64,000 nt of DNA from assembly GCA_948938605.1 (NCBI GenBank), contig CARAIG010000079.1:15-64014 (forward strand). Reading direction: 5' to 3'. This document shows positions 1 through 28,076 of this stretch, one piece after another. Origin of the DNA: an uncultured Eubacteriales bacterium. Lineage in GTDB: Bacteria; Bacillota; Clostridia; Christensenellales; CAG-314. A model generated the notes under the pieces. The model was given only the letters and a program-made list of their open reading frames with translations. It searched no databases and had not been told where the DNA came from. The number at the start of each line of letters is the position of its first letter. Within the stretch, counting starts at the first letter, position 1. The translations under genes were made by a program, and so were the position numbers.

Positions 1-195
1 AATTTTTAGTAAAAATTTTGAATTTTTTATATATTTATATATAAATATCCGCGCGTATGTAATAAAAGTTTAAAAACAACTATTAACATTAAAAGTCCTA
101 CAAATACAAAATTTAAGCCGACATTAATTTACACATAAAACCGCCACAAAACAAACGCATTTAAAATAAGCACTTTACCAAAACAAAAATACGAT

Positions 196-8236: not shown

Positions 8237-9973
8237 TTACCACTTATCGCGAAGGAAGCGTTTTTCGTCTTCTTTAAGGTCAAGTCCCAACGTTCCGCCG
8301 GGGTTCATAAGGTTGTCGGGATCGAAGTGCTTTTTAAGCGTTTTGTAAATTTCCATTTGACGGGTACCGATTTGTCCTTCGAGCCAAGGCGCAAAGAATT
8401 TGCCTATACCGTGATGGTGCGAAATTGCCGCACCGCTCTTTTGAATGTGGTCGAGTATTCCGCTCCAATAGTTTACAAAGTCGTCCAGTTCGGTCATCTT
8501 TGCAATGAAAATGAAGTACAGGTTAGCCCCTTGGGGATAGCAGTGAGACATATGCGTCATACAAATCGTATTGGGACGGCTGTGGCAGTATTCGCGTACA
8601 AGTTGGTGTACGTGTTCCATTTGGCTCCAAGTAACCGAACATTCCAATGTGTCGGTCATTACGCCGAAGTCCTGCATTGTGTCGCGCAAATACGGGTCGT
8701 TAAAGCGTCCTTTTTCCCAAGCGGAAGTAACCATACCGGTCAAACTCATTGCCTTGTGCTTTTTGCAAATGCGTTTGACGTTTTTGGCTATGTTTTTGCA
8801 AAAGCCTTTTTCGCCGTCGGTAAAGCCAAGGAACAAGCAACGTTTGTGCGGTTTGTACCCCAAACCGTTAAGCATTTTGCCCAAAATACTTTCGGATACG
8901 CCGTACAAGTGCATCATCATATCCGTTTCCTCGGGGTCGCTCAAACGGAATACGCTGGGGCGTCCGCATTCGCACTGCATAATTTCGCGCGCCGCGTCCA
9001 TTGCCGTTTCCCAGTCCTTAAACATAAAACTGAACTTATAGTGGTTTTTCGGCATATGACGGAAAACTTTTAACGTTACGTGCGTCAGTACGCCGAAGGT
9101 GCCTTCACTGCCCATCATAATTTGGTTGATGTCCGGTCCCGTAGCCTTAGCGGGATACGGTTCGGTTTTAACAATGCCCGTAGGCGTTGCGTATTCCTGC
9201 GCTATTACTATATCTTCGATTTTACCGTAATAGGTGGAGTTTTGTCCCGCACCGCGCGTTACAGTCCAACCGCCGACGCTGCTGTATTCGAACGATTGCG
9301 GGAAGTGTCCGCAAGTGTATGCGCGTTTTGCGCCGAACAGTTTAACGGCATTATTGAGCGTTTCTTCAAGTTTAGGTCCGCTCATACCCGCTTCCACCGT
9401 TATGGTTTGGTCGGTTTCGTTAAAGTCGATTACTTTGTTAAAGTGCCTGCGCATATCCAAACTTACGCCGCCGCAAATGGGTTCAACGCCGCGAGTTACC
9501 GACGAACCGCCGCCGTAAACGTAAAGGGGGATTTTGTGCTTTGAAACAAACGCTACGATTTTTTCGATTTGTTCCTTGCTTTCGGGGTAAAGCACTGCAT
9601 CGGGAACGTTGTCCGCAATGTGTTGGCGAAGGCGCAGCAAGTCGAACATTGTTTTGCCGTACGCTACACTTAAACGGTCGTAGTCGTCGGTGGATATGTT
9701 GTCTTCACCGACAATTTCGCGCAGTCCTTTTAAAATATCGACGGACAGCCCGCAAGGTTTAGTCAATTTTACTTCTTCCAGTCCCAACGGTTCGTCGTAA
9801 TTTTTAAAATCGTCGTCGGTTAAGTGGAAAATTTCCTTCATCAACTTGTAAAGGTTTTCCTTAGGAATTTTATTAAACGACGGATCGCCCCATTTAAAAA
9901 TGGAACGGTAACTGCGCTTAGGCGGATTTTCAAGATACCATTTAGGCTCAAAGCCTTTATAGGGTTTGCTCAT
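8237..9973 (-). CDS. FAD-linked oxidase, alkyl-DHAP-synthase/GlcD-like
   Basis: 578 aa with an FAD_binding_4-like region (PLYVYGGGSSVTRG) and an AGPS-like C-terminal half (HHHGIGK). An AAAGGAG RBS precedes ATG 9973. Confidence 0.65.
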   Translation of the reverse strand: MSKPYKGFEPKWYLENPPKRSYRSIFKWGDPSFNKIPKENLYKLMKEIFHLTDDDFKNYDEPLGLEEVKLTKPCGLSVDILKGLREIVGEDNISTDDYDRLSVAYGKTMFDLLRLRQHIADNVPDAVLYPESKEQIEKIVAFVSKHKIPLYVYGGGSSVTRGVEPICGGVSLDMRRHFNKVIDFNETDQTITVEAGMSGPKLEETLNNAVKLFGAKRAYTCGHFPQSFEYSSVGGWTVTRGAGQNSTYYGKIEDIVIAQEYATPTGIVKTEPYPAKATGPDINQIMMGSEGTFGVLTHVTLKVFRHMPKNHYKFSFMFKDWETAMDAAREIMQCECGRPSVFRLSDPEETDMMMHLYGVSESILGKMLNGLGYKPHKRCLFLGFTDGEKGFCKNIAKNVKRICKKHKAMSLTGMVTSAWEKGRFNDPYLRDTMQDFGVMTDTLECSVTWSQMEHVHQLVREYCHSRPNTICMTHMSHCYPQGANLYFIFIAKMTELDDFVNYWSGILDHIQKSGAAISHHHGIGKFFAPWLEGQIGTRQMEIYKTLKKHFDPDNLMNPGGTLGLDLKEDEKRFLRDKW

Positions 9974-9987
9974 TGTAATTACTCCTT

Positions 9988-11523
9988 TTAGTTATTATGC
10001 TTATCCATATGCAAATAAAGTTTTTGCAATTTTTTGTATAATTTCATATAGACGTTTTTGTATAAGTCGTCGTATATTTTTACGTTTTGCGGATTGGGCG
10101 TAAATTCGTCGACAAACCGCACCATTCCCTTTACTGCGTCTTCGGCGCAACCGTACACTCCGCAAGCGGTAAAGGCAACTATTGCGCAACCTAACGCACA
10201 AGTTTCGTGCGTTTGAACGCGCTTTACGGGCTTATTGAAAATGTCCGCAGCGATTTGACAAATAAGGTCGCTTTGGGCTCCGCCGCCCGAAACCGTAATA
10301 AAATCTATTTTTTGATGTCCCCTGCGTTCCAACCGTTCAAGCCCTTCGCGCAACGCATAGTCTATACCTTCGATTATGGCTTTGTAAACGTGGGCGCGGG
10401 TATGCCAGTCATTAAAACCTATTACCGAACCGCGTGCTTCGGGGTGAGTTAGTCCCCCTTGCCAAAACGGTTGTAAAATAAGTCCGTCGCTGCCTGCGGG
10501 AATTGCTTCCATTTCCTCGTTCATAAGTTCTTCGACGCTTTTGCCCGTTTCTTCCGAACGTTTTTCCAAATGTTGGGCAAATTGTTTTTTAAACCAACTT
10601 ATCATCCAATAACCGCGGAATATTTGCACTTCGGGGTTATAGTACGCCTTAACGACCGACGGATAGCTGGGCATAAACGTTTCCGGCTCGAAATACTTTT
10701 TAGTGGAAAACTGCACAGTACTGCTTGTGCCGAACGATATGCTTGCAACGTTGCGGTCGATACATCCGCCCCCCAACGTTTCGCAACTTTTGTCCGATCC
10801 GCTTGCAATTACTTTAAGCCCTTGTTTAAGTCCTGTAATTTTAGCGATTTGTTCATCGATTGTACCAACAGTGTCGCCGGGATCGCACAGCGGTATCATT
10901 TTTTCTAACGGCAAATTAAATACGGGAAACAGCAATTCGCCTTTTTTTAACCAGCGTCTGCGTTTATTGAAAAACGGTAAATGTCCTATTATAGACGCGT
11001 ACGAATCCACAAGATTCCCCGTCAATTTATAATTAAGATACCCCGATATTAGGACGACTTTGTCTACCTTAGCCCAAACTTCTGGTTCGTTGTCCTGCAC
11101 CCAATTGGTAAATACGCGTCGGCGTATAGCTTTAATCGGACGGGACATACCTACCAATCCAAACAAAAATCGTTGCTTAAAAGGAAGTTTTTTAGACGTA
11201 TCCGCAACGCGCATATCGCTCCAAAGTATACAGTTGCGCACGGCATTCCTGTCCTTATCCAAAAGTACGGCGGTATCGCGGAAAGTATCAACAGATATTG
11301 CAATAACGCTTTCCATAAGTTCGGGCTGTTTGTCCCTAATTGCTTTTGTAATGTCACACAAAACATCCCAATACATATCGGCGGACTGTTCCATATATCC
11401 GCTTTCCTTACATATGTAAGGTTTGTACTTGATTTGTTCCTTAATTAGCAAATTACCCTTGTCGTCGAAGATTATACCGCGCATACTTTGCGTGCCGACA
11501 TCTATAACTAATACGTTACTCAT
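9988..11523 (-). CDS. FGGY-family carbohydrate kinase
   Basis: N-terminal VLVIDVGTQSMRG plus FGGY_C-like GGGAQSDLICQIAADIF. The start is set to ATG 11523, which follows an AGGAGG RBS. Confidence 0.75.
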   Translation of the reverse strand: MSNVLVIDVGTQSMRGIIFDDKGNLLIKEQIKYKPYICKESGYMEQSADMYWDVLCDITKAIRDKQPELMESVIAISVDTFRDTAVLLDKDRNAVRNCILWSDMRVADTSKKLPFKQRFLFGLVGMSRPIKAIRRRVFTNWVQDNEPEVWAKVDKVVLISGYLNYKLTGNLVDSYASIIGHLPFFNKRRRWLKKGELLFPVFNLPLEKMIPLCDPGDTVGTIDEQIAKITGLKQGLKVIASGSDKSCETLGGGCIDRNVASISFGTSSTVQFSTKKYFEPETFMPSYPSVVKAYYNPEVQIFRGYWMISWFKKQFAQHLEKRSEETGKSVEELMNEEMEAIPAGSDGLILQPFWQGGLTHPEARGSVIGFNDWHTRAHVYKAIIEGIDYALREGLERLERRGHQKIDFITVSGGGAQSDLICQIAADIFNKPVKRVQTHETCALGCAIVAFTACGVYGCAEDAVKGMVRFVDEFTPNPQNVKIYDDLYKNVYMKLYKKLQKLYLHMDKHNN

Positions 11524-17456: not shown

Positions 17457-18191
17457 TTAATTTGCCAACGTAAATTTGACGGTAAAAGACGTTTCGCCGT
17501 CACGTTCGCCCACGACGTACACTGCGTTGTTTTCCCGCTTGGAATATATCTTTACCACATCACCGCATTTAAGTTCCTTGTGGTAAACAATTTCCGCTTC
17601 GGCAATCCGTTCCGTTTGGGACAAGACGTCCAATGCGTAATTGACGTAGTTAGTATTATTGACGTGCTTGTTTAAGTCCAAGTCGGTTCGGCGTATTTGA
17701 CGCTCGTAACTAAGGCTGTAACTTTCGTCCTTGCGTACCCTGTCAAAATTGTTGTCGCAACCGCATTCGGCTGTGTCGAAGTCAAAATTGTAATATTGCG
17801 CAACGGTTTCGCGCGAAGCGATTTTACGGCTGTCGCGTTCCACTATCATCCACAAAGTACTGCTGCTAAAAAGCAACTCGCCCTGTCCGTCCACGCCTTC
17901 AAAACGGCGTTCCAAGTATAATCTGTTTGCGGCAACGGGCCAAGTGTACAATTTAAACCCGCTTTCCTTGCGTGTGATCGGTTTGTGAAAAACAATCTTA
18001 ACTTTGCTTAACACCCAAAACAAACCGTTTTCGTCCATACGATCCCAACCGATACCCAACCTATCGGCGTGAGTAGTTGCCGCACCTTGCGTAATTTCCA
18101 TTAAGCGACGTATGCTTATGTCAGACGTTACATCAAAGTCGCTCGAATACAATGCGCAATCCATTGTTAAAAAAGTTTTTTGCGGAAGCAT
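17457..18191 (-). CDS. Acyl-ACP thioesterase
   Basis: 244 aa with length and pattern (double hot-dog fold, DLDLNKHVNNTNY) typical of the bacterial FatA/B-like acyl-ACP thioesterase family. Confidence 0.7.
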   Translation of the reverse strand: MLPQKTFLTMDCALYSSDFDVTSDISIRRLMEITQGAATTHADRLGIGWDRMDENGLFWVLSKVKIVFHKPITRKESGFKLYTWPVAANRLYLERRFEGVDGQGELLFSSSTLWMIVERDSRKIASRETVAQYYNFDFDTAECGCDNNFDRVRKDESYSLSYERQIRRTDLDLNKHVNNTNYVNYALDVLSQTERIAEAEIVYHKELKCGDVVKIYSKRENNAVYVVGERDGETSFTVKFTLAN

Positions 18192-18342
18192 AGTTTTATC
18201 TTTTCCTTTTGTCCGTTACATTCAATCAGATAATTGTTTGTAACAAGTATTTACAAAATATTATATCCTTTTTGCCAAATTTGTCAAAAAGAAAACCGCG
18301 ACTCGTTAAAAAACACTAAAAAAGTTAAAGATATTAAAAGTA

Positions 18343-18371
18343 TTGACAGCATATAAATTATAGTGTATACT
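18343..18371 (+). promoter_or_regulatory. Consensus sigma-A promoter of the ATPase leader
   Basis: TTGACA (18343-18348), 17 nt, TATACT (18366-18371). Confidence 0.65.
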
Positions 18372-18384
18372 TACGCTAATTTAA

Positions 18385-18517
18385 TACCGTGAGGGAGTAA
18401 TTTGCGTCATTAGACGTAACAACTGCCGTCAACCGACATTAAAGCAATGTCCGGTACTGTTTAAAAAATGAGACTCACGCAACCTACAAAAGTATTTTAG
18501 GGTTGCGTGAGTTTTTT
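18385..18517 (+). promoter_or_regulatory. Riboswitch-like leader with an intrinsic terminator (best guess yybP-ykoY Mn2+/Ca2+ class)
   Basis: A TACCG...CGGTA closing helix, a GAGGGAGUAA loop, GUCAACCGACAUUAAAGCAAUGUC, then a 12-bp terminator stem ACTCACGCAACC/GGTTGCGTGAGT plus T6 (18472-18517). All of this lies about 110 nt upstream of a P-type ATPase. Confidence 0.4.
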
Positions 18518-18625
18518 ATTATCGTTTTTTAGCAAGGCTGAGCAAATGCCGGCAAAACATTATTGTTGTCAAATCATTTTAAACAATGCGGATCAAAAAA
18601 ACAAACCGCAAAAAGGAGCATATGG

Positions 18626-21304
18626 ATGAACGAATACAAACTAACCGTCGAACAAACTTTAAACGAAGTAGAATCGACCGCAGACGGATTGACTGGCGCA
18701 CAAGCGGGTGAGCGCTTAAAGACAAACGGCGCAAACGTACTTACGCAAGGCAAAAAAACTCCGTTAATTGTAAAGTTTTTAAAACAATTAGCCGACCCGA
18801 TGATACTAATTTTGCTAATAGCAGCCGTAGTAAGTTTAGTGCTGACCATTGTAAATAATGCCGACCCCTCAAACGAAAAGGAATCGTTTGCCGACGTAAT
18901 TATAATTTCAATAGTCGTAATACTTAACGCCACGTTGAGCGTAATTCAAGAAGGACGCGCCGAAAAATCACTTGCCGCACTGCAATCGATGACAAAAGCG
19001 CAAGCAAAGGTAAAGCGCGACGGCAAATTGATAACAGTCGACAGTGCCGACTTGGTTGTAGGCGACGTTATAATACTCGAAGCGGGCGACAGCATTCCCG
19101 CCGATTGCAGGATAATTTTTGCCGCAAGTTTAAAAGTAGAAGAATCGGCTTTAACGGGCGAAAGCGTACCCGTAGACAAAAACGCATTGCCATGCGAAGC
19201 CGACACGCCCCTTGCCGAACGCAAAAATATGCTTTATTCGGGCAGCAACGTTGTTTACGGACGTGCCGAAGCGGTAATCACCGCTACCGCTATGCAAACC
19301 GAAATGGGTAAAATTGCAAGCGTCATTGCCAACGCTCGTGACGAAAAAACCCCGCTGCAAATTAAAATGGCGCAACTGTCGCGCATATTGACATATGTGG
19401 TAGCGGGCATATCTTTGTTTATATTTGCCTTTAACTTGATTATAAAAGGGGTACAGGTCGATTCCGTAATGGACAGTTTGTTCACTGCAATAGGACTTGC
19501 GGTAGCTGCTATTCCCGAAGGGTTGGCAACGGTAGTTACAATCGTACTGTCAATCGGCGTAACTAATATGAGCAAACAACACGCCATTATCCGCAAATTG
19601 ACGGCAGTCGAAACGCTGGGCTGCGCCCAAATCATTTGCAGCGACAAAACGGGAACGCTGACGCAAAACGTAATGACCGTAACCGAAACCTTTACCAACG
19701 ACGAACAAGTTTTATGTTACGCAATGAGTTTGTGCAACGACTGCGTCGTATCGCAAAGTAACGTGCAAGGCGAACCCACCGAAAAAGCGCTTGTAAATTA
19801 CGGGCTTAAAGCCGGATACGACAAATCGCAAATCGAACTGACGCTACCGCGAATTGCCGAAGCCCCGTTTGACTCCGAACGCAAAATGATGTCCACGTTG
19901 CACCAATGGAACGAACAAGTAGTTCAGTTTACAAAAGGTGCGCCCGACGAAATAATTAAGCGTTGCAACAAAATTCTTGTTAGCGGCAAAGCGCAGACAA
20001 TGCAAGATAACCAACGTCAACAAGTGCTTGAACACAACAAACAAATGGCGGACAAAGCGTTGCGCGTGCTTGCTTGCGCGTATGTAGTTTACGACAAACT
20101 GCCCGACGACATAACACCGCAATCTATCGAATGCAATATGGTATTTGTAGGATTGTGCGGAATGATCGATCCTGTGCGCGAAGAAGTAACCGCAGCAGTA
20201 CTCCAATGCAAAACCGCCGGCATACGCCCGATTATGATAACGGGCGACCACATCGACACCGCCGTTGCCATAGCCAAACAATTGGGAATAATCACAAGCC
20301 CCGATCAAGCGTTGCTCGGCTCCGCACTGGACGGACTGACAGACGAACAGTTTGAACAAACAATAGCAAATTATTCGGTTTACGCCCGCGTCCAACCCGA
20401 ACACAAAGTACGAATTGTTCAAACGTGGAAAAAACTAGGCAAAGTGTGCGCTATGACGGGTGACGGCGTAAACGACGCACCCGCAATTAAATGCGCCGAC
20501 ATCGGAGTAGGTATGGGAATTACTGGGACGGACGTAACAAAAGCCGCCGCCGATATGACGTTAACCGACGACAATTTTGCCACTATCGTCACCGCCGTTG
20601 CCGAAGGACGGCGTATTTACGAAAATATACGCAAAGCCATACAGTTTTTGCTGTCCAGCAATCTTGCCGAAGTAATTGCGGTATTTGCGGCTACGCTATG
20701 CGGTTTTACTCTGCTTAAACCTGCGCATTTGTTGTGGATAAACCTGATTACCGACACGTTGCCCGCAGTTGCACTAGGTACCGAACAACCCGAAGCCGAC
20801 ATTATGAACCGTCCGCCGCGCAGTAAAAAAAGCGGCATATTTGCCGACGGTCTCGGAGTGAACGTACTGCTGCACGGACTTTTAGTGGCTGGCATTACGC
20901 TTGCGGCGTATTTTGTAGGACACCATTTACAAGGCGTAACGGAAGTTAAAGGGTTAGTAAGCGAGCAAGGAATGACAATGGCGTTTTTGACAATGAGCGC
21001 AACCGAACTGTTCCACTCCTTTAACGCGCGCAGTATGCGCAAAAGCCTGTTTGCAACAAAAAAACAAAACAAACTGTTATGGATAGGTCTGTTAAGTTCG
21101 TTAGCGCTGTCTACTGCGGTAATATTTATCCCCGGCGTAAACACTGCTTTTGGCTTTGCAAACAGCGACGGCATAGCATATATAAACATTACCGAGTACT
21201 TAATTTCCATTGCGCTTGCATTTGCAATAATACCGCTTGTTGAAGTACAAAAATTGATAGCAAACGCAATAAGCTTTAAAAAAGACAAACGTAAACAAAA
21301 ATAA
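18626..21304 (+). CDS. P-type cation-transporting ATPase (P2-type, Ca2+/Mn2+ exporter-like)
   Basis: Motifs DKTGTLT, TGDHIDTA, TGDGVNDAPA and a Cation_ATPase_N/C architecture. ATG 18626 follows an AAAGGAG RBS. Confidence 0.9.
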   Translation: MNEYKLTVEQTLNEVESTADGLTGAQAGERLKTNGANVLTQGKKTPLIVKFLKQLADPMILILLIAAVVSLVLTIVNNADPSNEKESFADVIIISIVVILNATLSVIQEGRAEKSLAALQSMTKAQAKVKRDGKLITVDSADLVVGDVIILEAGDSIPADCRIIFAASLKVEESALTGESVPVDKNALPCEADTPLAERKNMLYSGSNVVYGRAEAVITATAMQTEMGKIASVIANARDEKTPLQIKMAQLSRILTYVVAGISLFIFAFNLIIKGVQVDSVMDSLFTAIGLAVAAIPEGLATVVTIVLSIGVTNMSKQHAIIRKLTAVETLGCAQIICSDKTGTLTQNVMTVTETFTNDEQVLCYAMSLCNDCVVSQSNVQGEPTEKALVNYGLKAGYDKSQIELTLPRIAEAPFDSERKMMSTLHQWNEQVVQFTKGAPDEIIKRCNKILVSGKAQTMQDNQRQQVLEHNKQMADKALRVLACAYVVYDKLPDDITPQSIECNMVFVGLCGMIDPVREEVTAAVLQCKTAGIRPIMITGDHIDTAVAIAKQLGIITSPDQALLGSALDGLTDEQFEQTIANYSVYARVQPEHKVRIVQTWKKLGKVCAMTGDGVNDAPAIKCADIGVGMGITGTDVTKAAADMTLTDDNFATIVTAVAEGRRIYENIRKAIQFLLSSNLAEVIAVFAATLCGFTLLKPAHLLWINLITDTLPAVALGTEQPEADIMNRPPRSKKSGIFADGLGVNVLLHGLLVAGITLAAYFVGHHLQGVTEVKGLVSEQGMTMAFLTMSATELFHSFNARSMRKSLFATKKQNKLLWIGLLSSLALSTAVIFIPGVNTAFGFANSDGIAYINITEYLISIALAFAIIPLVEVQKLIANAISFKKDKRKQK

Positions 21305-21357
21305 TATTGCAAATTCCGTTTTAAATATTTTGTTCCAGCAAATTATATGTACAAAAA

Positions 21358-21386
21358 ACAGCAAACTCAAAAAGTTTGCTGTTTTT
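21358..21386 (+). terminator. Rho-independent terminator after the ATPase
   Basis: ACAGCAAAC-loop-GTTTGCTGT followed by TTTT. Confidence 0.7.
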
Positions 21387-21487
21387 CGTCTAATATGCAA
21401 TTATCAATAATTTTTTACTAACGGGCGCAATTGCCGTCCGCAAACAAATAAGCCGTCTGTTAAATACGCAGTAGCACGACTTTTATT

Positions 21488-21934
21488 TTAGCGGAACAAG
21501 CCCGACAGTCCGACAACTAAGCCTGCGCAAATACCTACGACTACTGCAAGCACTATCCACCAAGCGCCTTTCTTTTTACCTTGTTTACGGTTAGCAATGG
21601 CTTCGGGATTGTCGTTATTGTCAAACAAAAAAGCGTTTCCGTGCGACAAACTGAATTTGTTTTTACCTGTCAACGTAATATCTTCGCTGCCTTCGGGCAG
21701 TTGGTAAAAGTCGTTACAGTAATCTTTGCTTACCGTATCGGCAATTACATACACCTTTGCAGCGTTGTCGCTTATTTCAAATGTTTTGGTTTCGCCGTTT
21801 TTAAGTGTTCCGATCGAAGCGCACGCCACGCCGTTTATTGAAATATCCCCCGCATTAGGCGTTTCGATACATACAGTCATAGTCATTAACGACGCAACAA
21901 ACGTTTTGCGCCTTTCGATAGTAAGTTTTCGCAT
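21488..21934 (-). CDS. Hypothetical protein with a C-terminal TM anchor
   Basis: 148-aa ORF with the C-terminal hydrophobic helix WWIVLAVVVGICAGLVVGL. No family recognised. Confidence 0.5.
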   Translation of the reverse strand: MRKLTIERRKTFVASLMTMTVCIETPNAGDISINGVACASIGTLKNGETKTFEISDNAAKVYVIADTVSKDYCNDFYQLPEGSEDITLTGKNKFSLSHGNAFLFDNNDNPEAIANRKQGKKKGAWWIVLAVVVGICAGLVVGLSGLFR

Positions 21935-22115
21935 ATATTACCCCTTTTGAATTTTATTTGTCGGTAATGTTTTTTACCATAGTAATTATGGCATATTACT
22001 TTTATTATGTCAATAATGAAATTAACACAAATACGTTTTATGTATAAAAATCACTCTCTTATACCTAGCAACGCAATATTACACCCTAAATTGTAAAAAC
22101 AAAAAAAGCGATAAT

Positions 22116-22199
22116 AAAAAAAAGTCCCCGAAACTCGCCGTTCGGGGCACTGTCGCAAAGACTTGCAACCGGCTTAAACGGTAAAAACCGTTTAACTGC
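22116..22199 (-). ncRNA. Candidate small RNA, copy 1 of a tandem pair
   Basis: Own promoter TTGACT (22234-22229), 17 nt, TATAAT (22211-22206). Two internal hairpins. Terminator CCCCGAA-loop-TTCGGGG plus T8. Confidence 0.55.
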
Positions 22200-22251
22200 T
22201 CATTTATTATACAGCATCGACAAGATAAAGTCAACAAATAATTGAAACAAT

Positions 22252-22330
22252 AAAAAAGTCCCCGAAACTAAACCGTTCGGGGCGCTGTCACAAGTCAGTG
22301 ACGGGGATAAACGTTAAAACCGTTTAACTG
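22252..22330 (-). ncRNA. Candidate small RNA, copy 2 of a tandem pair
   Basis: Own promoter TTGACT (22365-22360), 17 nt, TATACT (22342-22337). Same three-hairpin layout as copy 1. Terminator CCCCGAA-loop-TTCGGGG plus T6. Confidence 0.55.
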
Positions 22331-22386
22331 TTTATTAGTATACAACATTGACTAAGCAAAGTCAATTAAACAAACCGATCAAATAA

Positions 22387-23091
22387 TTAATCGTTTGCAA
22401 TCAAGTCCTTTATTACCTCGCCCGCAACAATCAGTCCCGCAACCGACGGCACATAGGATATACTTGCGGGAGTTTGACGTTTTTCCGACTGTTCGGGGTT
22501 AACGGGCGCAAGGGGCTGTTCTTGCGAGTACACTACTTTTAAATGTTCGATACCGCGTTTTTTAAGTTCCTTGCGCATAACTTTTGCAAGGGGACAAACG
22601 CTTGTTTGGTAAATGTCCGCAACTTTAAATTCGGTTGCGTCCAACTTGTTTCCTGTTCCCATACAGGATATTATCGGGGTATTTTGTTCAAAGCAAATTT
22701 CGGCAAGCAGTAATTTCGAAGTTACGCTGTCTATTGCGTCGACAACGTAGTCGAATGTAGAAAAGTCGAATCGACAAACGCTTTTTCCGTCAAAACGTAC
22801 TTGTAATGCGTAAACGGTGCAATCGGGATTGATGTCGTTAATGCGTTTTTGCGCAACGGCGACTTTTGCTTGTCCCACAGTCGAATGCAGTGCGTAAAGT
22901 TGACGGTTGACGTTGCTTAGCGCAATAACGTCGTCGTCTACAACGGTTAGGCTGCCTACTCCCGCACGCGCAAGCGCTTCGACGGCAAAACTGCCCACTC
23001 CGCCCAAACCGAACACCGCAACGTGTTTTGTACGCAATTTTTTAACGGCGTCTTCGCCTATTAACATTTCCGTCCTGCAAAATTGGGACAT
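22387..23091 (-). CDS. tcdA: ThiF/HesA-family E1-like enzyme, tRNA threonylcarbamoyladenosine dehydratase-like
   Basis: Dinucleotide fold VAVFGLGGVGS and ThiF-family length. ATG 23091 follows a GAGG RBS. Confidence 0.6.
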   Translation of the reverse strand: MSQFCRTEMLIGEDAVKKLRTKHVAVFGLGGVGSFAVEALARAGVGSLTVVDDDVIALSNVNRQLYALHSTVGQAKVAVAQKRINDINPDCTVYALQVRFDGKSVCRFDFSTFDYVVDAIDSVTSKLLLAEICFEQNTPIISCMGTGNKLDATEFKVADIYQTSVCPLAKVMRKELKKRGIEHLKVVYSQEQPLAPVNPEQSEKRQTPASISYVPSVAGLIVAGEVIKDLIAND

Positions 23092-23183
23092 AGTACTACC
23101 TCGCATAAAATTATTGCAATTCCGCAAACTCCAAGTAATAACACAAGCGCGCGGTTACGCGTATACTGACAAGAGGGCAAACA

Positions 23184-24038
23184 GTGAATTGCAAAGTTAT
23201 AGTTAATGCCGACAGCGGCAATTACAACCGTTTGGATTTAGACAAACTGCTTAATAATTTGGGTTGCGTAAACACCGTCGTCGAATTAATCGACAGTCAT
23301 AGCGATTGGTCTGCCGACGGGTGCGACACCGTAATTGTTTGCGGCGGGGACGGAACGTTACATAACGCGCTAAAAAAATGTCCCGACAAACACATTGTTT
23401 ACGCTCCTTGCGGAACTCTCAACGAATTTGCCAAAACTTGCGCCGCCGTCAATTCGGTAGGCAAAGTAAACGACGAACCTTTCGGTTACGTCTGCGCAAC
23501 AGGCAGTTTTACCGAAATAGGATATTCCGCAAACAACAAACACAAAAAACGTTTTAAAGCGTTAGCGTATTTACCGCAAATACTGCAAACGTACCGCAGT
23601 CACGAAATATCCGCCGAACTTACAATTGACGGCAAAACGTACAAAGACAATTACACATTGCTTATGGTACTTAAAAGCAACCGTTGCTTCGGTTTTAATT
23701 TTAACAAAAGTTACTCTAAAAACAACGGATTGTACCTTATTGCAATTAAGTCGAAAGGAACTGACAATTTTACTAACCGCTTCAAAATGTTTTTTCCGTT
23801 TTTCCGCGTGTTTTTTTGCGGCGTAAAAGCCCCTAAAACGACAAACGGTTTTACAGTAATACCGTTTAAAGATTTAACGGTAAAACTCAAAACGCCGCAA
23901 AATTTTTGTTTAGACGGCGAAAAACGCGTTTTATCGGGTAAATTACACTTTTGCGAACAAACACTCAGCAATGAAATTGCCGTCGTTAAAACGCCGTTTA
24001 AACGCCGAGTTTTTGCACCAAGTCGGAAGCCCCTTTAA
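23184..24038 (+). CDS. Diacylglycerol/lipid kinase family protein (YegS-like)
   Basis: DAGK catalytic motif VIVCGGDGTLHNAL. GTG start follows an AGAGGG RBS. The 3-prime end overlaps the convergent HAD gene by 41 nt. Confidence 0.65.
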   Translation: MNCKVIVNADSGNYNRLDLDKLLNNLGCVNTVVELIDSHSDWSADGCDTVIVCGGDGTLHNALKKCPDKHIVYAPCGTLNEFAKTCAAVNSVGKVNDEPFGYVCATGSFTEIGYSANNKHKKRFKALAYLPQILQTYRSHEISAELTIDGKTYKDNYTLLMVLKSNRCFGFNFNKSYSKNNGLYLIAIKSKGTDNFTNRFKMFFPFFRVFFCGVKAPKTTNGFTVIPFKDLTVKLKTPQNFCLDGEKRVLSGKLHFCEQTLSNEIAVVKTPFKRRVFAPSRKPL

Positions 24039-24561
24039 ACAGGATCGGGGTTATGCCGAACCGCTCCAAATCCCTTAAATTGTTGGGATTGTCGTCGGTA
24101 AAATATATGTTGTTAAATTGTTCGGTAAAGCTGTCTACGCACAGTTTGTAAAACTCGCAATCGGGCTTAGCATAGCCGTACGCAGCCGACACGAATACCT
24201 TGTCAAACAACCCGAACAAGCCGTATTTGTTAAACAAATAATCTATGTAAGACGTTGCCGCATTGGATAATAAAGCGATGCAGTGTCCCTGCGCTTTTAA
24301 CTGCTTAATAACGTCTACCGTATCGGCAAATAAACATTCGTAACTTGCCCATTCTCTTTTAGCCTGCTCGACGCTTACGTTGCTCAATTCCGCCAAAGTA
24401 ACAAACATATCGTCCATTGTTATAACGCCTTTATCCAAATTGCGAAAAACAACGCTACGCATATATTTTTTTTGTTCGTCATTTAAATATTTATCTGTAA
24501 ACAACGACGAAACTTCGGAAATTATTACTCCGAAACAATCGAAAATATACAAATTTCTCAT
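23998..24561 (-). CDS. HAD-superfamily hydrolase (atypical motif I)
   Basis: N-terminal IFDCFGVI (first Asp present, second Asp replaced) and later LSNA and TDDNPNN motifs. Confidence 0.55.
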   Translation of the reverse strand: MRNLYIFDCFGVIISEVSSLFTDKYLNDEQKKYMRSVVFRNLDKGVITMDDMFVTLAELSNVSVEQAKREWASYECLFADTVDVIKQLKAQGHCIALLSNAATSYIDYLFNKYGLFGLFDKVFVSAAYGYAKPDCEFYKLCVDSFTEQFNNIYFTDDNPNNLRDLERFGITPILFKGASDLVQKLGV

Positions 24562-24605
24562 TATATTCTCACACCTTTATTGCATTTAAAAATTCATCAA
24601 ACGGT

Positions 24606-25619
24606 TCATTTATTGTACCCTTTGGGGTTTTTTGTTTGCCAGTTCCACAACGACGAACACATATCGTCCATTGTTAAATCGGCTTGCCAGCCAAGTTCCC
24701 TTTTTGCCTTTGCGCAATCGGCATAACAAGCGGCAATATCGCCGTCCCTGCGCCCTACTATTTTGTACGGTACGTTATGCCCGCACGCTTTGCTAAACGA
24801 ATCGATAACTTGCAGTACCGAATAGCCGTTGCCTGTACCCAAGTTATAAACGTACACGCCGTTGTCCTTTACCCCGCAAATTGCGGCGACGTGTCCTTTT
24901 GCAAGGTCGACTACGTGGATATAATCGCGTACGCCCGTTCCGTCGGGAGTGTTGTAGTCGTTGCCGAAAACGTTAACTTGGGGCAGTTCACCTATTGCAA
25001 CCTTTGCAACAAACGGCGTAAGATTGTTGGGTATACCCTTGGGATCTTCCCCGATAAGTCCGCTTGGATGCGCGCCGACAGGGTTGAAATAACGCAACAA
25101 CACCACGGTCCAGTTGTTATCCGACTTGTATAAGTCGGTCAATATTATCTCTTGGAAATACTTGCTCGTTCCGTACGGATTGGTTGTCCCGCCCGTTTTG
25201 CATTCTTCCGTCAACGGCAGCACTTCGGGGTCGCCGTATACGGTTGCGGACGAAGAAAAGACGATTTTTTTACAATTGTGCGCCCGCATAACTTCCAACA
25301 ATACAAGTGTTCCGTACAAATTGTTGTCGTAATACTCTAACGGTTTTGCGCAACTTTCGCCCACTGCTTTAAGTCCCGCAAAGTGAATTACGCAGTCGAT
25401 TTTTTGCTCATCGAAAACTTTGTTCAACAAATTTCTGTCGCGAACATCCCCTTCGTAAAAAACAACATCGCGTCCCGTAATAGTTTTGATACGGTTAAGC
25501 ACTTCGGGCGACGAATTGGAAAAGTTGTCTATTGCAACAACATCGTGCCCTTTGTCCAAAAGTTCCACACAAGTGTGCGAACCAATATAGCCGGCACCCC
25601 CGCTAACAAGTATTTTCAT
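24606..25619 (-). CDS. galE: UDP-glucose 4-epimerase
   Basis: MKILVSGGAGYIGSH, the YGTSK catalytic motif, 337 aa. Confidence 0.9.
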   Translation of the reverse strand: MKILVSGGAGYIGSHTCVELLDKGHDVVAIDNFSNSSPEVLNRIKTITGRDVVFYEGDVRDRNLLNKVFDEQKIDCVIHFAGLKAVGESCAKPLEYYDNNLYGTLVLLEVMRAHNCKKIVFSSSATVYGDPEVLPLTEECKTGGTTNPYGTSKYFQEIILTDLYKSDNNWTVVLLRYFNPVGAHPSGLIGEDPKGIPNNLTPFVAKVAIGELPQVNVFGNDYNTPDGTGVRDYIHVVDLAKGHVAAICGVKDNGVYVYNLGTGNGYSVLQVIDSFSKACGHNVPYKIVGRRDGDIAACYADCAKAKRELGWQADLTMDDMCSSLWNWQTKNPKGYNK

Positions 25620-25656
25620 TTTAAACCTCCTGTTTTGTTTAACATCGATTTATAAA

Positions 25657-27000
25657 TTATTGCGTGCGTCTAACAAGCAAAACCACTGTTTCCACTTGAT
25701 CGGTTTGCGGAAAAAGATCGTACGGTTCGACATAGGTAACTTTATATCCCGCCGACAACTGCGCTATATCGCGGGCTAATGTTGCCGAATCGCACGAAAC
25801 GTACACTATGTTATCGACTTGCGCCGACAAAATCGTGTTGCACACCGTTTCGCCCAGACCTTTGCGCGGAGGGTCAACCACCATAGTTATGCGTTTGCCG
25901 TTAAGTTGGTTTGTAAGTTTTGGCAGTTCGACGTTAACGTCACCGCATATATTAGTTATGCGTTTACCGTTAATTTCAGCAAGTGCGTTTGCATCGTCTG
26001 CGGCGGAAGGCTCGATTTCGATTGCGTAAGTATCGAACCTGTCGTCTGCCAGTACGTTAGTCAGCACTCCCACTCCGCTGAAACAATCGATTAACGCTTG
26101 CGTTTGCGACGTATTCAACAATTCCTTTACCTTGCTGTAAATGGCGTTTTTAACTTCGTCATTGACTTGGAAAAAGCTTTCGATTTGCAAGCGGAATTTA
26201 ACGCCCAAATGTTCGCTTTCGATGTATTTCAGCCCGTAAATATAACGTGTTGTTTTACCTAAAATTACGTTGTTTTTATTGTTGTTTATGTTTATAAACA
26301 AACCGAATTTGTCAAACGATTTGTTTAAGCGGTCTATTAAAGGCTGTAAATCGTGCTTAAATTCGCCGTTTACTACAAGTGCAACAAGTAACTGTCCGTC
26401 GATATAACGCGCCACCAAATGCCTAACTTCCCCTTTAAAAGTACGTTCGTCATACGGGGCTATTTTATATGCGTTTAAGTATTCGGTAACTTCGTTTGCA
26501 AGCGTCGTTGCCCAACTTCCGCACAGCAAACAGCCGTTAGTTTTAACTGCCTTGTGGGTGCCTTTTTGGTACATTCCAGCATACGCCTTGCCTTGCGTTC
26601 CGCATATGGGCAAGCTGATTTTATTGCGGTATTCAAGTTGCTTGGGCGAAGGAAAACAAGGTAAAACGTCACAGTCGGTTTTGCCTATTTTGCGCAGATT
26701 TTGCATTACTTTGTTACGCTTAAAATTAAGCTGTTCGGCATAACTCATACGGGACAATACGCATCCGCCGCATTTGCCGAAATGTTTACACTTGGGGTTA
26801 ACGCTTAAAGGCGACGTTGTTATAAATTCAACAATGCGGGCGTAGGCAATGTTTTTCTTTACATAAGTAACCTTAACCTTAGCCGTTTCGCCTGCGAGCA
26901 TATTAGGGACAAACACCGTGTAACCGTCGACATATCCGACTGTTTCGGAATTGGCGTAGCTTTCGGCAGTATATGTAATTATATCGTCTTGTTTAAGCAT
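25657..27000 (-). CDS. 23S rRNA (uracil-5)-methyltransferase RumA/RlmD family
   Basis: TRAM-like N-terminus, a CKHFGKCGGC 4Fe-4S cluster motif, and a SAM methyltransferase C-terminus (DPPRKG, VYVSCDSATLARD). Confidence 0.8.
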   Translation of the reverse strand: MLKQDDIITYTAESYANSETVGYVDGYTVFVPNMLAGETAKVKVTYVKKNIAYARIVEFITTSPLSVNPKCKHFGKCGGCVLSRMSYAEQLNFKRNKVMQNLRKIGKTDCDVLPCFPSPKQLEYRNKISLPICGTQGKAYAGMYQKGTHKAVKTNGCLLCGSWATTLANEVTEYLNAYKIAPYDERTFKGEVRHLVARYIDGQLLVALVVNGEFKHDLQPLIDRLNKSFDKFGLFININNNKNNVILGKTTRYIYGLKYIESEHLGVKFRLQIESFFQVNDEVKNAIYSKVKELLNTSQTQALIDCFSGVGVLTNVLADDRFDTYAIEIEPSAADDANALAEINGKRITNICGDVNVELPKLTNQLNGKRITMVVDPPRKGLGETVCNTILSAQVDNIVYVSCDSATLARDIAQLSAGYKVTYVEPYDLFPQTDQVETVVLLVRRTQ

Positions 27001-27002
27001 AG

Positions 27003-28076
27003 TTAAATTTTAAAAGATATTACAAAGGTACTGCCCTTGCCCGCTTCGCTGCGGACGGAAATACTGCCGTCCAAAACTTCTACGATTTTTTTGACTATTG
27101 ACAAACCTAAACCGTTGCCTTGCGTAGTATGCGACTTGTCGCCTTGATAAAATTTGTTGAAGATATTTTGCATAACTTCGGGGGACATTCCGCACCCGTC
27201 GTCGGTAACGGTAACAATCACGCAATTGTTTTCGATTTTGCACCCTACCGATATATTACCGTTTTCATCGGTAAATTTAACCGCATTTGTCAGCAAATTA
27301 ACCCACACTTGGTTGAGCAATTTGGAGTTGCTTTCTATTTGGACGTTTTCGTCGATATTTGCTTCGAGTGTAATATTTTTTTCGCGGCACTGTCTGTCAA
27401 ACATCAGCACGCATTGACGCAATTGTTCGTCCAAACTAAAACGTTCCTTTACTACGACTTGCGTATCAAGGCGGTTAAGCAGCAATACGCTTTCAGACAG
27501 TCCTACAAGTCGATCCGATTCGGAAATAATTATATCCAAAAATTCTTCCTTTTGTTCGTCGGTCAAAGTCGGATCTTTAAGCAATTTTGCAAAACCCGAA
27601 ATCGATACGATAGGCGTTTTAAATTCGTGCGAAAAATCGCTTATAAAACCTTCGCGTAACGTTTCGACGCTTTCCAACTGCTGAACCATATTATTGAAAT
27701 TATCGGCAATACCGAAGTTGGAAAATATTGAACTGTCCTTTATTCGTACCGTAAAATCGCATTCCGCCGCCCGCTGCAACGCTTCGAGATACGGTCTGCT
27801 TGCCCTAATCATTATTGCGGAATATGCAAACGACAGCGCAAGTCCGAATATAACGCTCATACCCATAACTATTACCGCAAATACAAGTATGTTATCTTCG
27901 TCTACGCGCATCCATTTGGCTACAAGCGCCGACATACCGAATGTTATAATAGACGAAATCGTAAGCAACAAAAACAACCCCAAAACAACAATTAAAGTTA
28001 TGCGGTTGAATATCTGATTGCGTTTTACGCCGTCAACCTTTTTAGCATTTTTATTATTTAGTTTATTTTTACTCAT
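27003..28076 (-). CDS. Sensor histidine kinase
   Basis: H-box FISDFSHEFKTPI and G-box GNGLGLSIVKK. The ATG 28076 start overlaps the response regulator stop by 8 nt. Confidence 0.85.
   Translation of the reverse strand: MSKNKLNNKNAKKVDGVKRNQIFNRITLIVVLGLFLLLTISSIITFGMSALVAKWMRVDEDNILVFAVIVMGMSVIFGLALSFAYSAIMIRASRPYLEALQRAAECDFTVRIKDSSIFSNFGIADNFNNMVQQLESVETLREGFISDFSHEFKTPIVSISGFAKLLKDPTLTDEQKEEFLDIIISESDRLVGLSESVLLLNRLDTQVVVKERFSLDEQLRQCVLMFDRQCREKNITLEANIDENVQIESNSKLLNQVWVNLLTNAVKFTDENGNISVGCKIENNCVIVTVTDDGCGMSPEVMQNIFNKFYQGDKSHTTQGNGLGLSIVKKIVEVLDGSISVRSEAGKGSTFVISFKI

What the first reader, a model, noticed from the sequence alone, without database searches (positions are those of the whole stretch)
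22116..22365. Two tandem paralogous ~80-nt small RNA genes, each with its own consensus promoter and terminator
Seen, on the minus strand between tcdA and a small membrane-protein gene, is a ~130-bp unit occurring twice.
- Each unit has -35 TTGACT and a 17-nt spacer. The -10 is TATAAT in unit 1 and TATACT in unit 2.
- The predicted transcript is ~80 nt with three hairpins:
  1. TAAACGG-loop-CCGTTTA in unit 1, and AAACG-loop-CGTTT in unit 2.
  2. A middle hairpin that differs in sequence but keeps its pairing: GTTGCA/TGCGAC in unit 1 versus GTCAC/GTGAC in unit 2.
  3. A CCCCGAA/TTCGGGG terminator followed by T6-T8.
- Single-stranded stretches are conserved between copies (CAGTTAAACGG and GACAG-GCCCCGAAC).
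- There is no plausible ORF; the longest is 3 codons.

Inference: these are independently transcribed structured sRNAs duplicated in tandem. I do not recognise the family.
Basis: partly seen in the sequence, partly recalled or inferred. Interest (0 to 1): 0.6.

Follow-up and report, generated by a model that had tools for sequence, protein, structure and literature searches.

The report
Orphan tandem copies of a mobile-element antisense sRNA
The two ~80-nt units are predicted small-RNA genes of an undescribed, covariation-supported family from gut Christensenellales-like bacteria; elsewhere the same RNA sits antisense inside a widespread integrated mobile element, so these chromosomal copies may regulate or block such elements.

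Summary
Two minus-strand units (22365-22252 and 22234-22116) each carry TTGACT-17-TATA(C/A)T, a three-hairpin ~80-84-nt transcript and a CCCCGAAC/GTTTCGGGG terminator with a T-run.

No Rfam family matches at E<=1. A covariance model found 82 copies (67 distinct) at 53 loci in gut Clostridia/Christensenellaceae-labelled MAGs. Covariation is strong:
- 98.7% of cells are paired.
- 14 of 18 pairs show compensatory changes.
- 0 of 500 shuffles reach this.
- G-U outnumbers A-C 20:4, which places the fold on the sRNA strand.

At 23 loci a single copy lies inside a ~10-13-kb integrated element (G2P-type rolling-circle Rep, IS30-like integrase, membrane P-loop ATPase). There it is the only opposite-strand unit and is antisense to an intergenic gap of the element's operon. 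The other 30 loci lack these element genes. Eight of them, including this window, are tandem arrays of 2-4 copies.

The modules (H1, H2, terminator) recombine freely. The 3' 57 nt of unit 1 differ by one base from an element-borne copy.

Best reading: element-derived, countertranscript-like antisense sRNAs kept as chromosomal orphans, possibly acting in trans on such elements.

The parts
22337..22365 (-). Unit 2 promoter: -35 TTGACT (22365-22360), 17-nt spacer, -10 TATACT (22342-22337)
   Evidence: 10 of 12 matches. The same promoter architecture is found in 63 of 68 family copies.
22252..22331 (-). Unit 2 predicted transcript (~80 nt). The start site is inferred to be about 7 nt after the -10 element.
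   Evidence: Covariance-model match of 92.6 bits with model R1 and 86.2 bits with model R2.
22308..22326 (-). Unit 2 hairpin H1 (TAAACG / CGTTTA)
   Evidence: All six H1 pairs covary in the family.
22287..22302 (-). Unit 2 hairpin H2 (GTCAC-TGACTT-GTGAC), the variable 'allele' module
   Evidence: This allele was not found elsewhere.
22252..22282 (-). Unit 2 terminator hairpin CCCCGAAC..GTTTCGGGG (22282-22260) plus T6 (22257-22252)
   Evidence: Four H3 pairs covary in the family.
22206..22234 (-). Unit 1 promoter: -35 TTGACT (22234-22229), 17-nt spacer, -10 TATAAT (22211-22206)
   Evidence: 11 of 12 matches.
22116..22199 (-). Unit 1 predicted transcript (~84 nt)
   Evidence: Covariance-model match of 88.5 bits (model R2).
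22175..22194 (-). Unit 1 hairpin H1 (TAAACGG / CCGTTTA)
22152..22169 (-). Unit 1 hairpin H2 (GTTGCAA-GTCT-TTGCGAC). The same allele occurs in element-borne copy L122 and in chromosomal copies G143 and L076.
22116..22147 (-). Unit 1 terminator hairpin (22147-22126) plus T8 (22123-22116)
   Evidence: (7 pairs, 5 of them G-C).
21305..22386 (.). Accessory interval between the conserved, convergent tcdA and P-type ATPase genes. It holds the two sRNA units and a patchily distributed 148-aa gene (21488-21934, minus strand, with its own promoter at 22013-21985).
   Evidence: Relatives G018, G005 and G031 keep tcdA next to the ATPase gene without these inserts. The 148-aa protein is found in 16 of 301 genomes of the order.

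Best explanation
The two units are predicted, independently transcribed sRNA genes. They belong to an undescribed three-hairpin family of about 85 nt, confined so far to gut Christensenellales-like Clostridia.

The family's other home is a ~10-13-kb integrated mobile element. All of that element's protein genes lie on one strand. The sRNA is the single opposite-strand unit. It sits in the gap between a ~150-aa basic protein gene, whose stop codon abuts or overlaps (0-23 nt) the sRNA terminator, and a ~30-aa membrane peptide plus ~750-aa membrane P-loop ATPase gene. These are followed by a G2P-type Rep gene and an IS30-like integrase gene.

There the sRNA is necessarily a perfect antisense partner of the element's polycistronic mRNA. 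Inferred mechanism: duplex formation starts at hairpin loops and leads to cleavage or decay. Convergent transcriptional interference may also act. Either would lower expression of the distal ATPase-Rep-integrase genes, in the manner of a plasmid countertranscript or a phage immunity RNA.

The window's copies are orphan chromosomal copies in an accessory intergenic insertion. Inferred role: they are expressed constitutively and pair in trans with transcripts of elements that carry matching modules, with H2 as the specificity module. This would give an incompatibility-, immunity- or anti-addiction-like effect. Carrying two different H2/terminator alleles would broaden the range.

Status of each step:
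- Shown: gene anatomy, family membership, covariation, the strand of the fold, element context, module exchange, and a near-identical element-borne counterpart of unit 1.
- Inferred: transcription, antisense action, and trans activity of the orphan copies.
For: Anatomy:
- Promoters, terminators and folds are as described.
- Such units are rare in this genome, 4 in 1.77 Mb.

Family:
- Homologues occur in 6 of 47 genomes of the genus and in other families of the order.
- A pattern scan of species-representative genomes gave 55 stretches.
- The model matched 82 copies, 67 distinct.

Structure:
- 98.7% of cells are paired, 14 of 18 pairs are compensatory, and 0 of 500 shuffles reach this. Slid-partner controls give at most 62.5% paired.
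- G-U 20 against A-C 4 places the fold on the sRNA-sense strand.
- The promoter is conserved in 63 of 68 copies.

Element context:
- 23 of 53 loci are in the element, always as a single copy and always opposite to the element's genes.
- The Rep matches PF23343 REP_ORF2-G2P and the integrase matches HTH_38 plus rve.
- The ~150-aa gene's stop lies 0-23 nt inside the sRNA 3' end in most loci.
- In G031 the element is an insertion relative to G000, and the sRNA is internal to it.

Cassette behaviour:
- Two elements that are 92-94% identical in DNA differ only in a 489/616-nt segment. That segment is the C-terminal part of the ~150-aa gene plus the sRNA body. Homology resumes at the sRNA promoter, and a different RNA sits behind the same promoter in L098.
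- Modules recombine. One H2 allele occurs with 4-6 H1 arms and 2 terminator stems.

Link to the window:
- Element-borne copy L122 matches unit 1 over linker, H2 and terminator (57 nt, 1 difference). Its H1 differs by compensatory changes.
- All 8 multi-copy arrays are outside the element.
- The window's array lies in an accessory interval.
Against: - No expression data exist.
- No antisense target of the window's sRNAs exists in the assembly of G000, which is 93.7% complete. G000 lacks the ATPase and the ~150-aa gene of this element type, so any trans target would have to be an incoming element.
- The H2 allele of unit 2 has no known element counterpart.
- Genomes with arrays do not cleanly exclude the element. 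It is absent in 3 of 7 and present in 4 of 7.
- The sRNA does not overlap a ribosome-binding site or a rep leader, so the repression mechanism is undefined.
- The element itself is unclassified. The ATPase has no Pfam, PDB or BFVD assignment beyond a RecA-like P-loop fold.
- Conserved C-rich single-stranded linkers could instead be seeds for host mRNAs.
Confidence: 0.5

Rival explanations
1. These are trans-acting sRNAs that regulate host mRNAs. The conserved C-rich linker between H1 and H2 (AUCCCCG, AAGCCGG; elsewhere AUUCCCG, ACACCUG) and the 5' YAG(G/U)U would act as seeds against G-rich Shine-Dalgarno regions, as in RsaE/RoxS, LhrC or csRNAs. On this reading the element copy is a 'moron' that reprograms the host, and the chromosomal arrays are domesticated multicopy regulators.
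For: - The single-stranded linker and the 5' end are among the most conserved unpaired positions in 67 sequences.
- Multicopy sRNA families with C-rich seeds are established in Firmicutes (general knowledge).
- The arrays lie in ordinary chromosomal contexts.
Against: - No Rfam match to RsaE, LhrC or csRNA models.
- A crude duplex screen of 1362 translation-initiation regions of G000 gave no outstanding target and was uninformative.
- The rival does not explain why discrete, sequence-conserved H2 loop alleles are shuffled among copies.
- It does not explain why the sRNA body is exchanged as a cassette together with the neighbouring element gene.
Confidence: 0.2
2. The copies are expressed but functionless relics. 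On this reading the window's units are leftovers of decayed or recombined element insertions that merely retain a strong promoter and terminator.
For: - G143's solitary copy still carries 15 nt of the element's downstream gene end.
- The window's interval is an accessory insertion.
- No target is present in G000.
Against: - Both units keep intact near-consensus promoters, all three helices and terminators.
- Eight independent loci keep 2-4 intact units with compensatory changes.
- Relics of about 130 bp would be expected to decay quickly.
Confidence: 0.15
3. The sRNA is the RNA partner of the adjacent ~150-aa basic protein. It would be either an antitoxin-like RNA for a PemK/MazF-like toxin or a protein-binding RNA. 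Chromosomal orphans would then neutralise that protein (anti-addiction).
For: - The sRNA body and the C-terminal domain of that protein are exchanged together as one cassette.
- All 15 members of the protein family hit Pfam PemK_toxin, but below threshold (best E 4.7e-4, 18.9 bits against a cut-off of 23.1).
- The convergent 3' overlap resembles type I toxin-antitoxin loci of Firmicutes.
Against: - hhalign against E. coli MazF gives no support (probability 0.6%).
- The AlphaFold model is unusable (pLDDT 40).
- There is no PDB sequence match.
- The protein is large and hydrophilic, unlike type I toxins.
- The RNA is not a processed repeat array upstream of the gene, unlike type III systems.
- Some element copies have the sRNA without this protein (L028, L040, L074, L083).
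Confidence: 0.12
4. It is a DNA-level element of the rolling-circle element (single-strand origin, packaging signal or recombination site), and the promoter and terminator are incidental.
For: Rolling-circle replicons use hairpin-rich non-coding regions (general knowledge). The sRNA occupies one of the few intergenic gaps of the element.
Against: - The fold is better on the strand opposite to the element's coding strand (G-U 20 against A-C 4).
- A canonical double-stranded promoter at a fixed distance and a U-tract terminator are conserved in 63 of 68 copies.
- Orphan arrays persist without any Rep gene nearby.
- The sRNA is internal to the element and not at its junctions.
Confidence: 0.03

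Closest known systems
Plasmid countertranscripts (ctRNAs) of rolling-circle and theta plasmids of Firmicutes (pT181 RNAI/II, pIP501 RNAIII, pMV158 RNAII; Rfam ctRNA_pT181, ctRNA_pND324, ctRNA_pGA1)
   Same: - It is a small (50-150 nt) untranslated RNA with stem-loops and an intrinsic terminator.
- It has a strong constitutive-type promoter.
- It is encoded antisense to an mRNA of a Rep-encoding replicon.
- It would be expected to act in trans as an incompatibility determinant.
   Different: - There is no sequence or structure match to any Rfam ctRNA model.
- The target is an intergenic gap about 2.6 kb upstream of rep, inside a long operon, and not the rep leader.
- No attenuator is visible downstream.
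- The host replicon is an integrated element.
- Orphan chromosomal arrays are not a ctRNA feature.
Phage immunity antisense RNAs (P1/P7 c4, P4 CI RNA, P22 sar; Rfam C4 antisense RNA)
   Same: - It is a mobile-element-encoded small antisense RNA whose short loop sequences set specificity.
- Heteroimmune alleles exist.
- Copies also occur in prophage remnants.
   Different: - It is unrelated in sequence and structure (no Rfam match).
- c4 and CI are processed from longer transcripts, whereas here each unit has its own promoter and terminator.
- Trans targets are not identified.
Type I toxin-antitoxin antisense RNAs of Firmicutes (bsrG/SR4, txpA/RatA, par RNAII)
   Same: - The arrangement is convergent, with overlap at the 3' end of a neighbouring protein gene on a mobile element.
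- The sRNA is structured and about 80-200 nt long.
   Different: - The neighbouring protein is about 150 aa and hydrophilic, not a hydrophobic peptide under 60 aa.
- The overlap with the ORF is only 0-23 nt.
- The window's copies have no convergent gene at all.
Multicopy sibling sRNAs (LhrC1-5, csRNA1-5, Qrr1-5, PrrF1/2)
   Same: - Several paralogous ~80-100-nt sRNA genes each have their own promoter and terminator.
- Some are in tandem.
- They carry C-rich unpaired stretches.
   Different: - Those families are core-genome regulons under a dedicated regulator.
- Here the promoters look constitutive, the distribution is patchy and linked to a mobile element, and the paralogues differ by exchange of whole hairpin modules.

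Membership tests
Any Rfam 15 family (including ctRNA families, C4 antisense RNA, RsaE/RoxS, LhrC, csRNA, riboswitches) | Covariance-model match at or near the family's gathering score | tested here: not met
   cmscan with permissive filters at E<=1 was run on window 18000-27000 and on 7 further loci holding 12 family copies. There was no match on any copy.
New family defined here (models R1 and R2) | About 85 nt with a 5' YAG(G/U)U, hairpin H1, a C-rich linker, variable hairpin H2, A(U/G)(U/C), and a GCCCC..GGGG terminator with a U-tract | tested here: met
   Both window units match end to end at 86-93 bits. The structure is supported by 14 of 18 compensatory pairs.
New family defined here (models R1 and R2) | Own sigma-70-type promoter ending 2-3 nt before the conserved 5' end | tested here: met
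   (63 of 68 copies, both window units included).
Plasmid countertranscript (ctRNA) | Encoded antisense to the leader of the rep mRNA of its own replicon | tested here: not met
   Element copies are antisense to a gap between the ~150-aa gene and the membrane peptide/ATPase genes. The rep gene lies about 2.6 kb further downstream. The window copies have no replicon around them.
Plasmid countertranscript (ctRNA) | Represses replication or acts as an incompatibility determinant in trans | not testable with these tools
   This needs an experiment. The only indirect lead is the near-identity of unit 1 to element copy L122 over 57 nt.
Type I toxin-antitoxin antisense RNA | Overlaps the mRNA of a small hydrophobic toxin peptide | tested here: not met
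   In the element the convergent neighbour is a ~150-aa basic hydrophilic protein. In the window there is no convergent ORF.
Type III toxin-antitoxin RNA (ToxI-like) | Head-to-tail short repeats in one transcript upstream of, and co-directional with, the toxin gene | tested here: not met
   Each unit has its own promoter and terminator. In the element the orientation is convergent.
Cis-regulatory leader or riboswitch | Lies in the 5' UTR of, and is co-transcribed with, a downstream gene | tested here: not met
   Many copies are followed by convergent genes. In the window the downstream gene has its own promoter about 100 nt after the unit 1 terminator.
Tubulavirales-like (filamentous-phage-like) prophage as carrier element | G2P/ORF2-type rolling-circle Rep | tested here: met
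   PF23343 at E 6e-12 to 1.7e-10, above the cut-off.
Tubulavirales-like (filamentous-phage-like) prophage as carrier element | Zot/pI-type morphogenesis ATPase and coat proteins | tested here: inconclusive
   The ~750-aa protein has a Walker A motif and a RecA-like fold. It has no Zot, FtsK or other assignment from Pfam, PHROGs, PDB or BFVD. A ~30-aa hydrophobic ORF is coat-like only by size.

The most novel reading that the evidence does not exclude
Chromosomal tandem arrays of promoter-sRNA-terminator units are a heritable, RNA-based immunity or incompatibility repertoire against a widespread family of integrative rolling-circle elements. Each unit would be a captured copy of an element's own antisense regulator. 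Its exchangeable H2/terminator module would set which element variants are silenced. Co-resident units with mutually complementary H2 loops (window CAAGUC/GACUUG; G065 and L042 CAAGUG/CACUUG; L091 exact inverse) would add a layer of sRNA-sRNA cross-talk or target mimicry.
Probability: 0.25. Interest if true: 0.8.

Novelty: new member of a known kind. Interest (0 to 1): 0.6.

Why it matters
Christensenellales are abundant, heritable members of the human and animal gut microbiota, yet no sRNA biology is known for them.

This finding gives a well-supported new RNA family of 67 distinct sequences with strong covariation. It ties that family to an uncharacterised but very common mobile element. The element's ATPase has at least 1,743 homologues in public metagenomes, all without annotation.

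If the orphan arrays act in trans, they would be a simple, programmable antisense defence or incompatibility system carried by the host. The family also offers a clean natural experiment in modular RNA evolution, with three helices that recombine independently.

Tried and rejected
- Leader or riboswitch of the downstream gene: rejected because of convergent neighbours and the units' own terminators.
- Second locus in G000 (C15): this is only promoter similarity to a tRNA operon promoter.
- Weak model hits in G021, G010, G168, G039, G125 and G146: these are terminators or coding sequence, not family members.
- att-site hypothesis, in which integration into the sRNA gene would explain the mosaicism: rejected because the sRNA is internal to the element in G031 and there is no partial copy at the junctions.
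- Conserved neighbour of the arrays: none found. The 148-aa gene is unrelated to other arrays.
- Extended antisense target in G000: none. The best hit was a 16-nt chance match in coding DNA.
- Host-target screen with duplexfold: uninformative.
- IMG/VR pattern scan: no hit.
- Identity of the ~150-aa protein: sub-threshold PemK hits only, with a poor AlphaFold model and no hhalign support.
- Identity of the ATPase: a good model (pLDDT 77) but no significant Foldseek match.
- Exclusion between arrays and elements: not seen cleanly.
- Literature searches for sRNAs or inoviruses in Christensenellales: nothing found.

Full report
1. THE OBSERVATION

On the minus strand between a ThiF-family (TcdA-like) gene (22387-23127; PF00899, E 3e-43) and a 148-aa gene (21488-21934) lie two units.
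- Unit 2 (upstream) has TTGACT, a 17-nt spacer and TATACT at 22365-22337.
- Unit 1 has TTGACT, a 17-nt spacer and TATAAT at 22234-22206.

Each promoter is followed by an ~80-84-nt stretch that folds into three hairpins. The last is CCCCGAAC/GTTTCGGGG, followed by T6 (unit 2) or T8 (unit 1). Fold energies against dinucleotide shuffles give z = -3.05 (unit 1) and z = -2.36 (unit 2).

A strict scan of the whole 1.77-Mb assembly asked for a consensus promoter plus a perfect terminator within 40-160 nt. It returns four units, and two of them are these.

2. IT IS A FAMILY, AND IT IS NOT IN RFAM

cmscan against Rfam 15 at E<=1 gives nothing on the units. It also gives nothing on 12 further copies found later.

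How the family was collected:
- BLAST in relatives found three homologues, each with its own promoter and terminator.
- A covariance model built from five sequences found copies in 6 of 47 genomes of the genus.
- A rebuilt model found copies in other families of the same order, including a four-copy array.
- A degenerate pattern for the terminator was scanned over one genome per prokaryotic species. It hit 55 stretches, nearly all in gut MAGs labelled Clostridia, Christensenellaceae or Christensenella.
- The model confirmed 82 copies, 67 of them distinct, at 53 non-redundant loci.

3. THE STRUCTURE IS REAL AND LIES ON THE sRNA STRAND

On the 67 distinct sequences:
- 98.7% of cells form standard pairs.
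- 14 of 18 pairs have compensatory double changes, in 166 cells.
- 0 of 500 column shuffles reach any of the measures.
- Sliding the 3' partners by 1-3 columns drops pairing to 25-62%.

The alignment was fitted to the model, which favours the structure. Even so, the per-pair spectra (for example AU:45 and GC:21; GC:34 and AU:33; CG:37 and UA:28) are unambiguous.

Wobble pairs (G-U or U-G, 20 cells) outnumber A-C or C-A (4 cells). The helices are therefore better on the sRNA-sense strand than on its complement.

63 of 68 copies carry TTGnnn-16..18-TAnnnT ending 2-3 nt before the conserved 5' YAG. 58 of them have TTGACT or TTGACA.

Common architecture:
- a short 5' tail;
- H1 of 6-9 bp;
- a C-rich linker (AUUCCCG, AUCCCCG, ACACCUG; AAGCCGG in unit 1);
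- H2, which is variable;
- A(U/G)(U/C);
- the terminator.

4. CONTEXT: A MOBILE ELEMENT

ORFs within 3 kb of all copies were clustered. At 23 of 53 loci the copy is single and sits in a conserved gene set, all of it on the opposite strand.

A complete example (L098/L099) and a G031 region show the order. Lengths are in aa:
- 184, 217, 84, 400, 214;
- ~697;
- ~150-198;
- the gap that holds the opposite-strand RNA unit (the family sRNA in G031/L097; a non-homologous RNA behind the same promoter in L098/L099, see below);
- a ~30-aa hydrophobic ORF;
- ~750-778 (multi-TM N-terminus plus Walker A);
- 83;
- Rep (PF23343 REP_ORF2-G2P, above threshold);
- an IS30-like integrase (HTH_38 plus rve).

In G031 this ~13-kb block interrupts a region that is collinear with G000 contig C42, so it is an insertion. 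The sRNA is internal to it.

The ~150-aa gene's stop codon lies 0-23 nt inside the sRNA's 3' end in most loci. The small hydrophobic ORF starts 50-150 nt beyond the sRNA's 5' end. No promoter-like site on the gene strand and no terminator in that direction separates the flanking genes in L064. The sRNA is therefore complementary to an internal segment of a probable polycistronic mRNA.

The element is common. The ATPase has at least 1,743 homologues, none annotated, and many are on 6-15-kb contigs.

Its class is unresolved:
- The Rep type is that of filamentous or plectro-type phages.
- The ATPase has no Pfam or PHROGs family and no PDB match.
- A reasonable AlphaFold model (pLDDT 77) has only weak RecA-like Foldseek hits.
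- IMG/VR holds no copy of the sRNA pattern.
- INPHARED has one unannotated fecal contig with the ATPase.

5. CASSETTE AND MODULE EXCHANGE

Elements L064 and L098 are 92-94% identical in DNA on both sides of a 489/616-nt block. That block is the C-terminal two-thirds of the ~150-aa gene plus the sRNA body. Homology resumes exactly at the sRNA promoter.
- The two proteins share only their first 33 residues.
- L098 has an unrelated RNA behind the same TTGACT-17-TATAAT promoter.
- The model finds no family copy there.

Other loci carry a second, unrelated promoter-hairpin-T-run unit right after the family copy, next to ~100-aa basic proteins of another type.

Within the family the three helices recombine.
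- The H2 allele GCCGATATTGGATTGCGGC occurs with at least four to six different H1 arms.
- H1 GTTGAGG occurs with three H2 alleles.
- Five H2 alleles each occur with two terminator stems.

6. THE WINDOW'S COPIES

The 30 loci without element genes include all eight arrays of 2-4 copies: the window, G113, G065, L042, L078, L079, L082 and L091. They have no shared neighbours.

In the window's genus, tcdA and the P-type ATPase gene are convergent neighbours in G018, G005 and G031. G000 has an extra ~1.08 kb there, which holds the 148-aa gene and the two units. The 148-aa gene is itself patchy (16 of 301 genomes) and is never next to the family elsewhere.

The two units share promoter and H1 but have different H2 and terminator loops.

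A metagenome scan with unit 1's H2 allele found contig L122.
- The copy there is element-borne, with the ATPase gene divergent upstream and the ~150-aa gene convergent downstream.
- It differs from unit 1 by one base over linker, H2 and terminator (57 nt).
- Its H1 differs by compensatory changes.

Unit 2's allele was not found.

Chromosomal copies in general are 73-97% identical to some element-borne copy, often with exact runs above 30 nt.

G000 lacks this element type, although it has two distant Rep homologues. It contains no extended complement of either sRNA.

7. INTERPRETATION

Shown: these have all the sequence hallmarks of real sRNA genes. They belong to a new, structured family linked to a mobile element, and in the element the RNA is a cis-antisense transcript.

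Inferred: in the element the sRNA down-regulates the distal genes (ATPase, Rep, integrase). It would do so by duplex-triggered decay and/or convergent transcriptional interference, like plasmid countertranscripts and phage immunity RNAs. The orphan chromosomal copies would act in trans on elements with matching modules. Confidence in this functional reading is about 0.5.

Rivals, with evidence in the Rival explanations section:
- host-mRNA regulation through the C-rich linker (0.2);
- expressed relics (0.15);
- RNA partner of the ~150-aa protein, for which a PemK/MazF-like hint is consistent (15 of 15 members) but sub-threshold and unsupported by hhalign or modelling (0.12);
- a DNA-level origin or packaging element (0.03).

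8. AN UNEXPLAINED DETAIL

In 4 of 8 arrays, two co-resident copies have H2 hairpins whose inner parts are mutually complementary over at least 6 nt:
- window: CAAGUC and GACUUG;
- G065 and L042: CAAGUG and CACUUG;
- L091: CCGCAGCGACUGCGG and CCGCAGUCGCUGCGG, exact reverse complements.

Only 4.5% of random non-co-resident pairs reach this.

Part of each match lies in stems, and G065 and L042 share alleles, so the events are not independent. Two explanations are possible:
- Loop inversion by recombination between the stem arms would produce this pattern.
- It could reflect sRNA-sRNA kissing, or mimicry of the complementary hairpin in an element's mRNA.

9. LIMITS

- No read data could be examined.
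- Start sites are predicted, not mapped.
- The organism and most relatives are MAGs.
- Genomes with arrays both lack (3) and carry (4, two with a stop in the ATPase gene) this type of element. No exclusion pattern can be claimed.

Noticed in passing
L021 1540-1660 (G005); L028 1640-1760; L083 2120-2240; L040 and L074 downstream of the family copy: Further sRNA-like units lie directly after family copies. Each has a TTGAC(T/A)-17-TA(C/T)AAT promoter, a structured ~70-100-nt body and a T-run. They are unrelated to this family and have no Rfam match. They lie next to ~100-aa basic proteins with a GHPA(Y/L)I...YKYL.FTHS motif. The element family seems to carry several interchangeable protein-plus-sRNA cassettes.
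   Followed up: partly
L098 7998-8268: An element 92-94% identical to L064 has a completely different antisense RNA behind the same promoter. Its neighbouring protein shares only the first 33 residues.
   Followed up: partly
window unit 1 H2 22152-22169 and unit 2 H2 22287-22302; L020, L042, L091: H2 hairpins of co-resident paralogues are mutually complementary (6-9 nt) in 4 of 8 arrays, against 4.5% of random pairs. This could reflect loop inversion or kissing pairs.
   Followed up: partly
L020 1090-1500 and 1650-2450 (G065): Long C/T-only low-complexity tracts flank the two sRNA copies. The ~500-bp repeat unit includes these flanks.
   Followed up: no
G000 contig C15 7114-7162 (L002 1500-1560): A tRNA operon promoter is 82% identical over 49 nt to the unit 1 promoter region (TTGACTTTTAATTTCGATTGCAGTATAAT). 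This suggests that the sRNA promoters resemble strong housekeeping promoters.
   Followed up: partly
window 21299-21389 (+): There is a sub-threshold Rfam hit to Streptococcus sRNA SpF25 (32 bits against a gathering score of 48). It coincides with the terminator hairpin after the P-type ATPase gene and is probably just a terminator.
   Followed up: no
G000 contigs C26 (~8970-9700) and C55 (~9590-10300): Two G2P-type Rep homologues (38-42% identity to the element's Rep) show that G000 carries other, different rolling-circle elements. No family sRNA is near them.
   Followed up: partly
G113 C9:101504-103711 and G342 C2:144693-146834: Element ATPase genes with an internal stop codon occur in two genomes that also carry sRNA arrays. 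In G113 the gene lies about 12 kb from the array on the same contig.
   Followed up: no
G000 contig C4 ~27128-27300: A promoter, a GAGGGAGUAA-containing leader and a strong terminator occur together.
   Followed up: no
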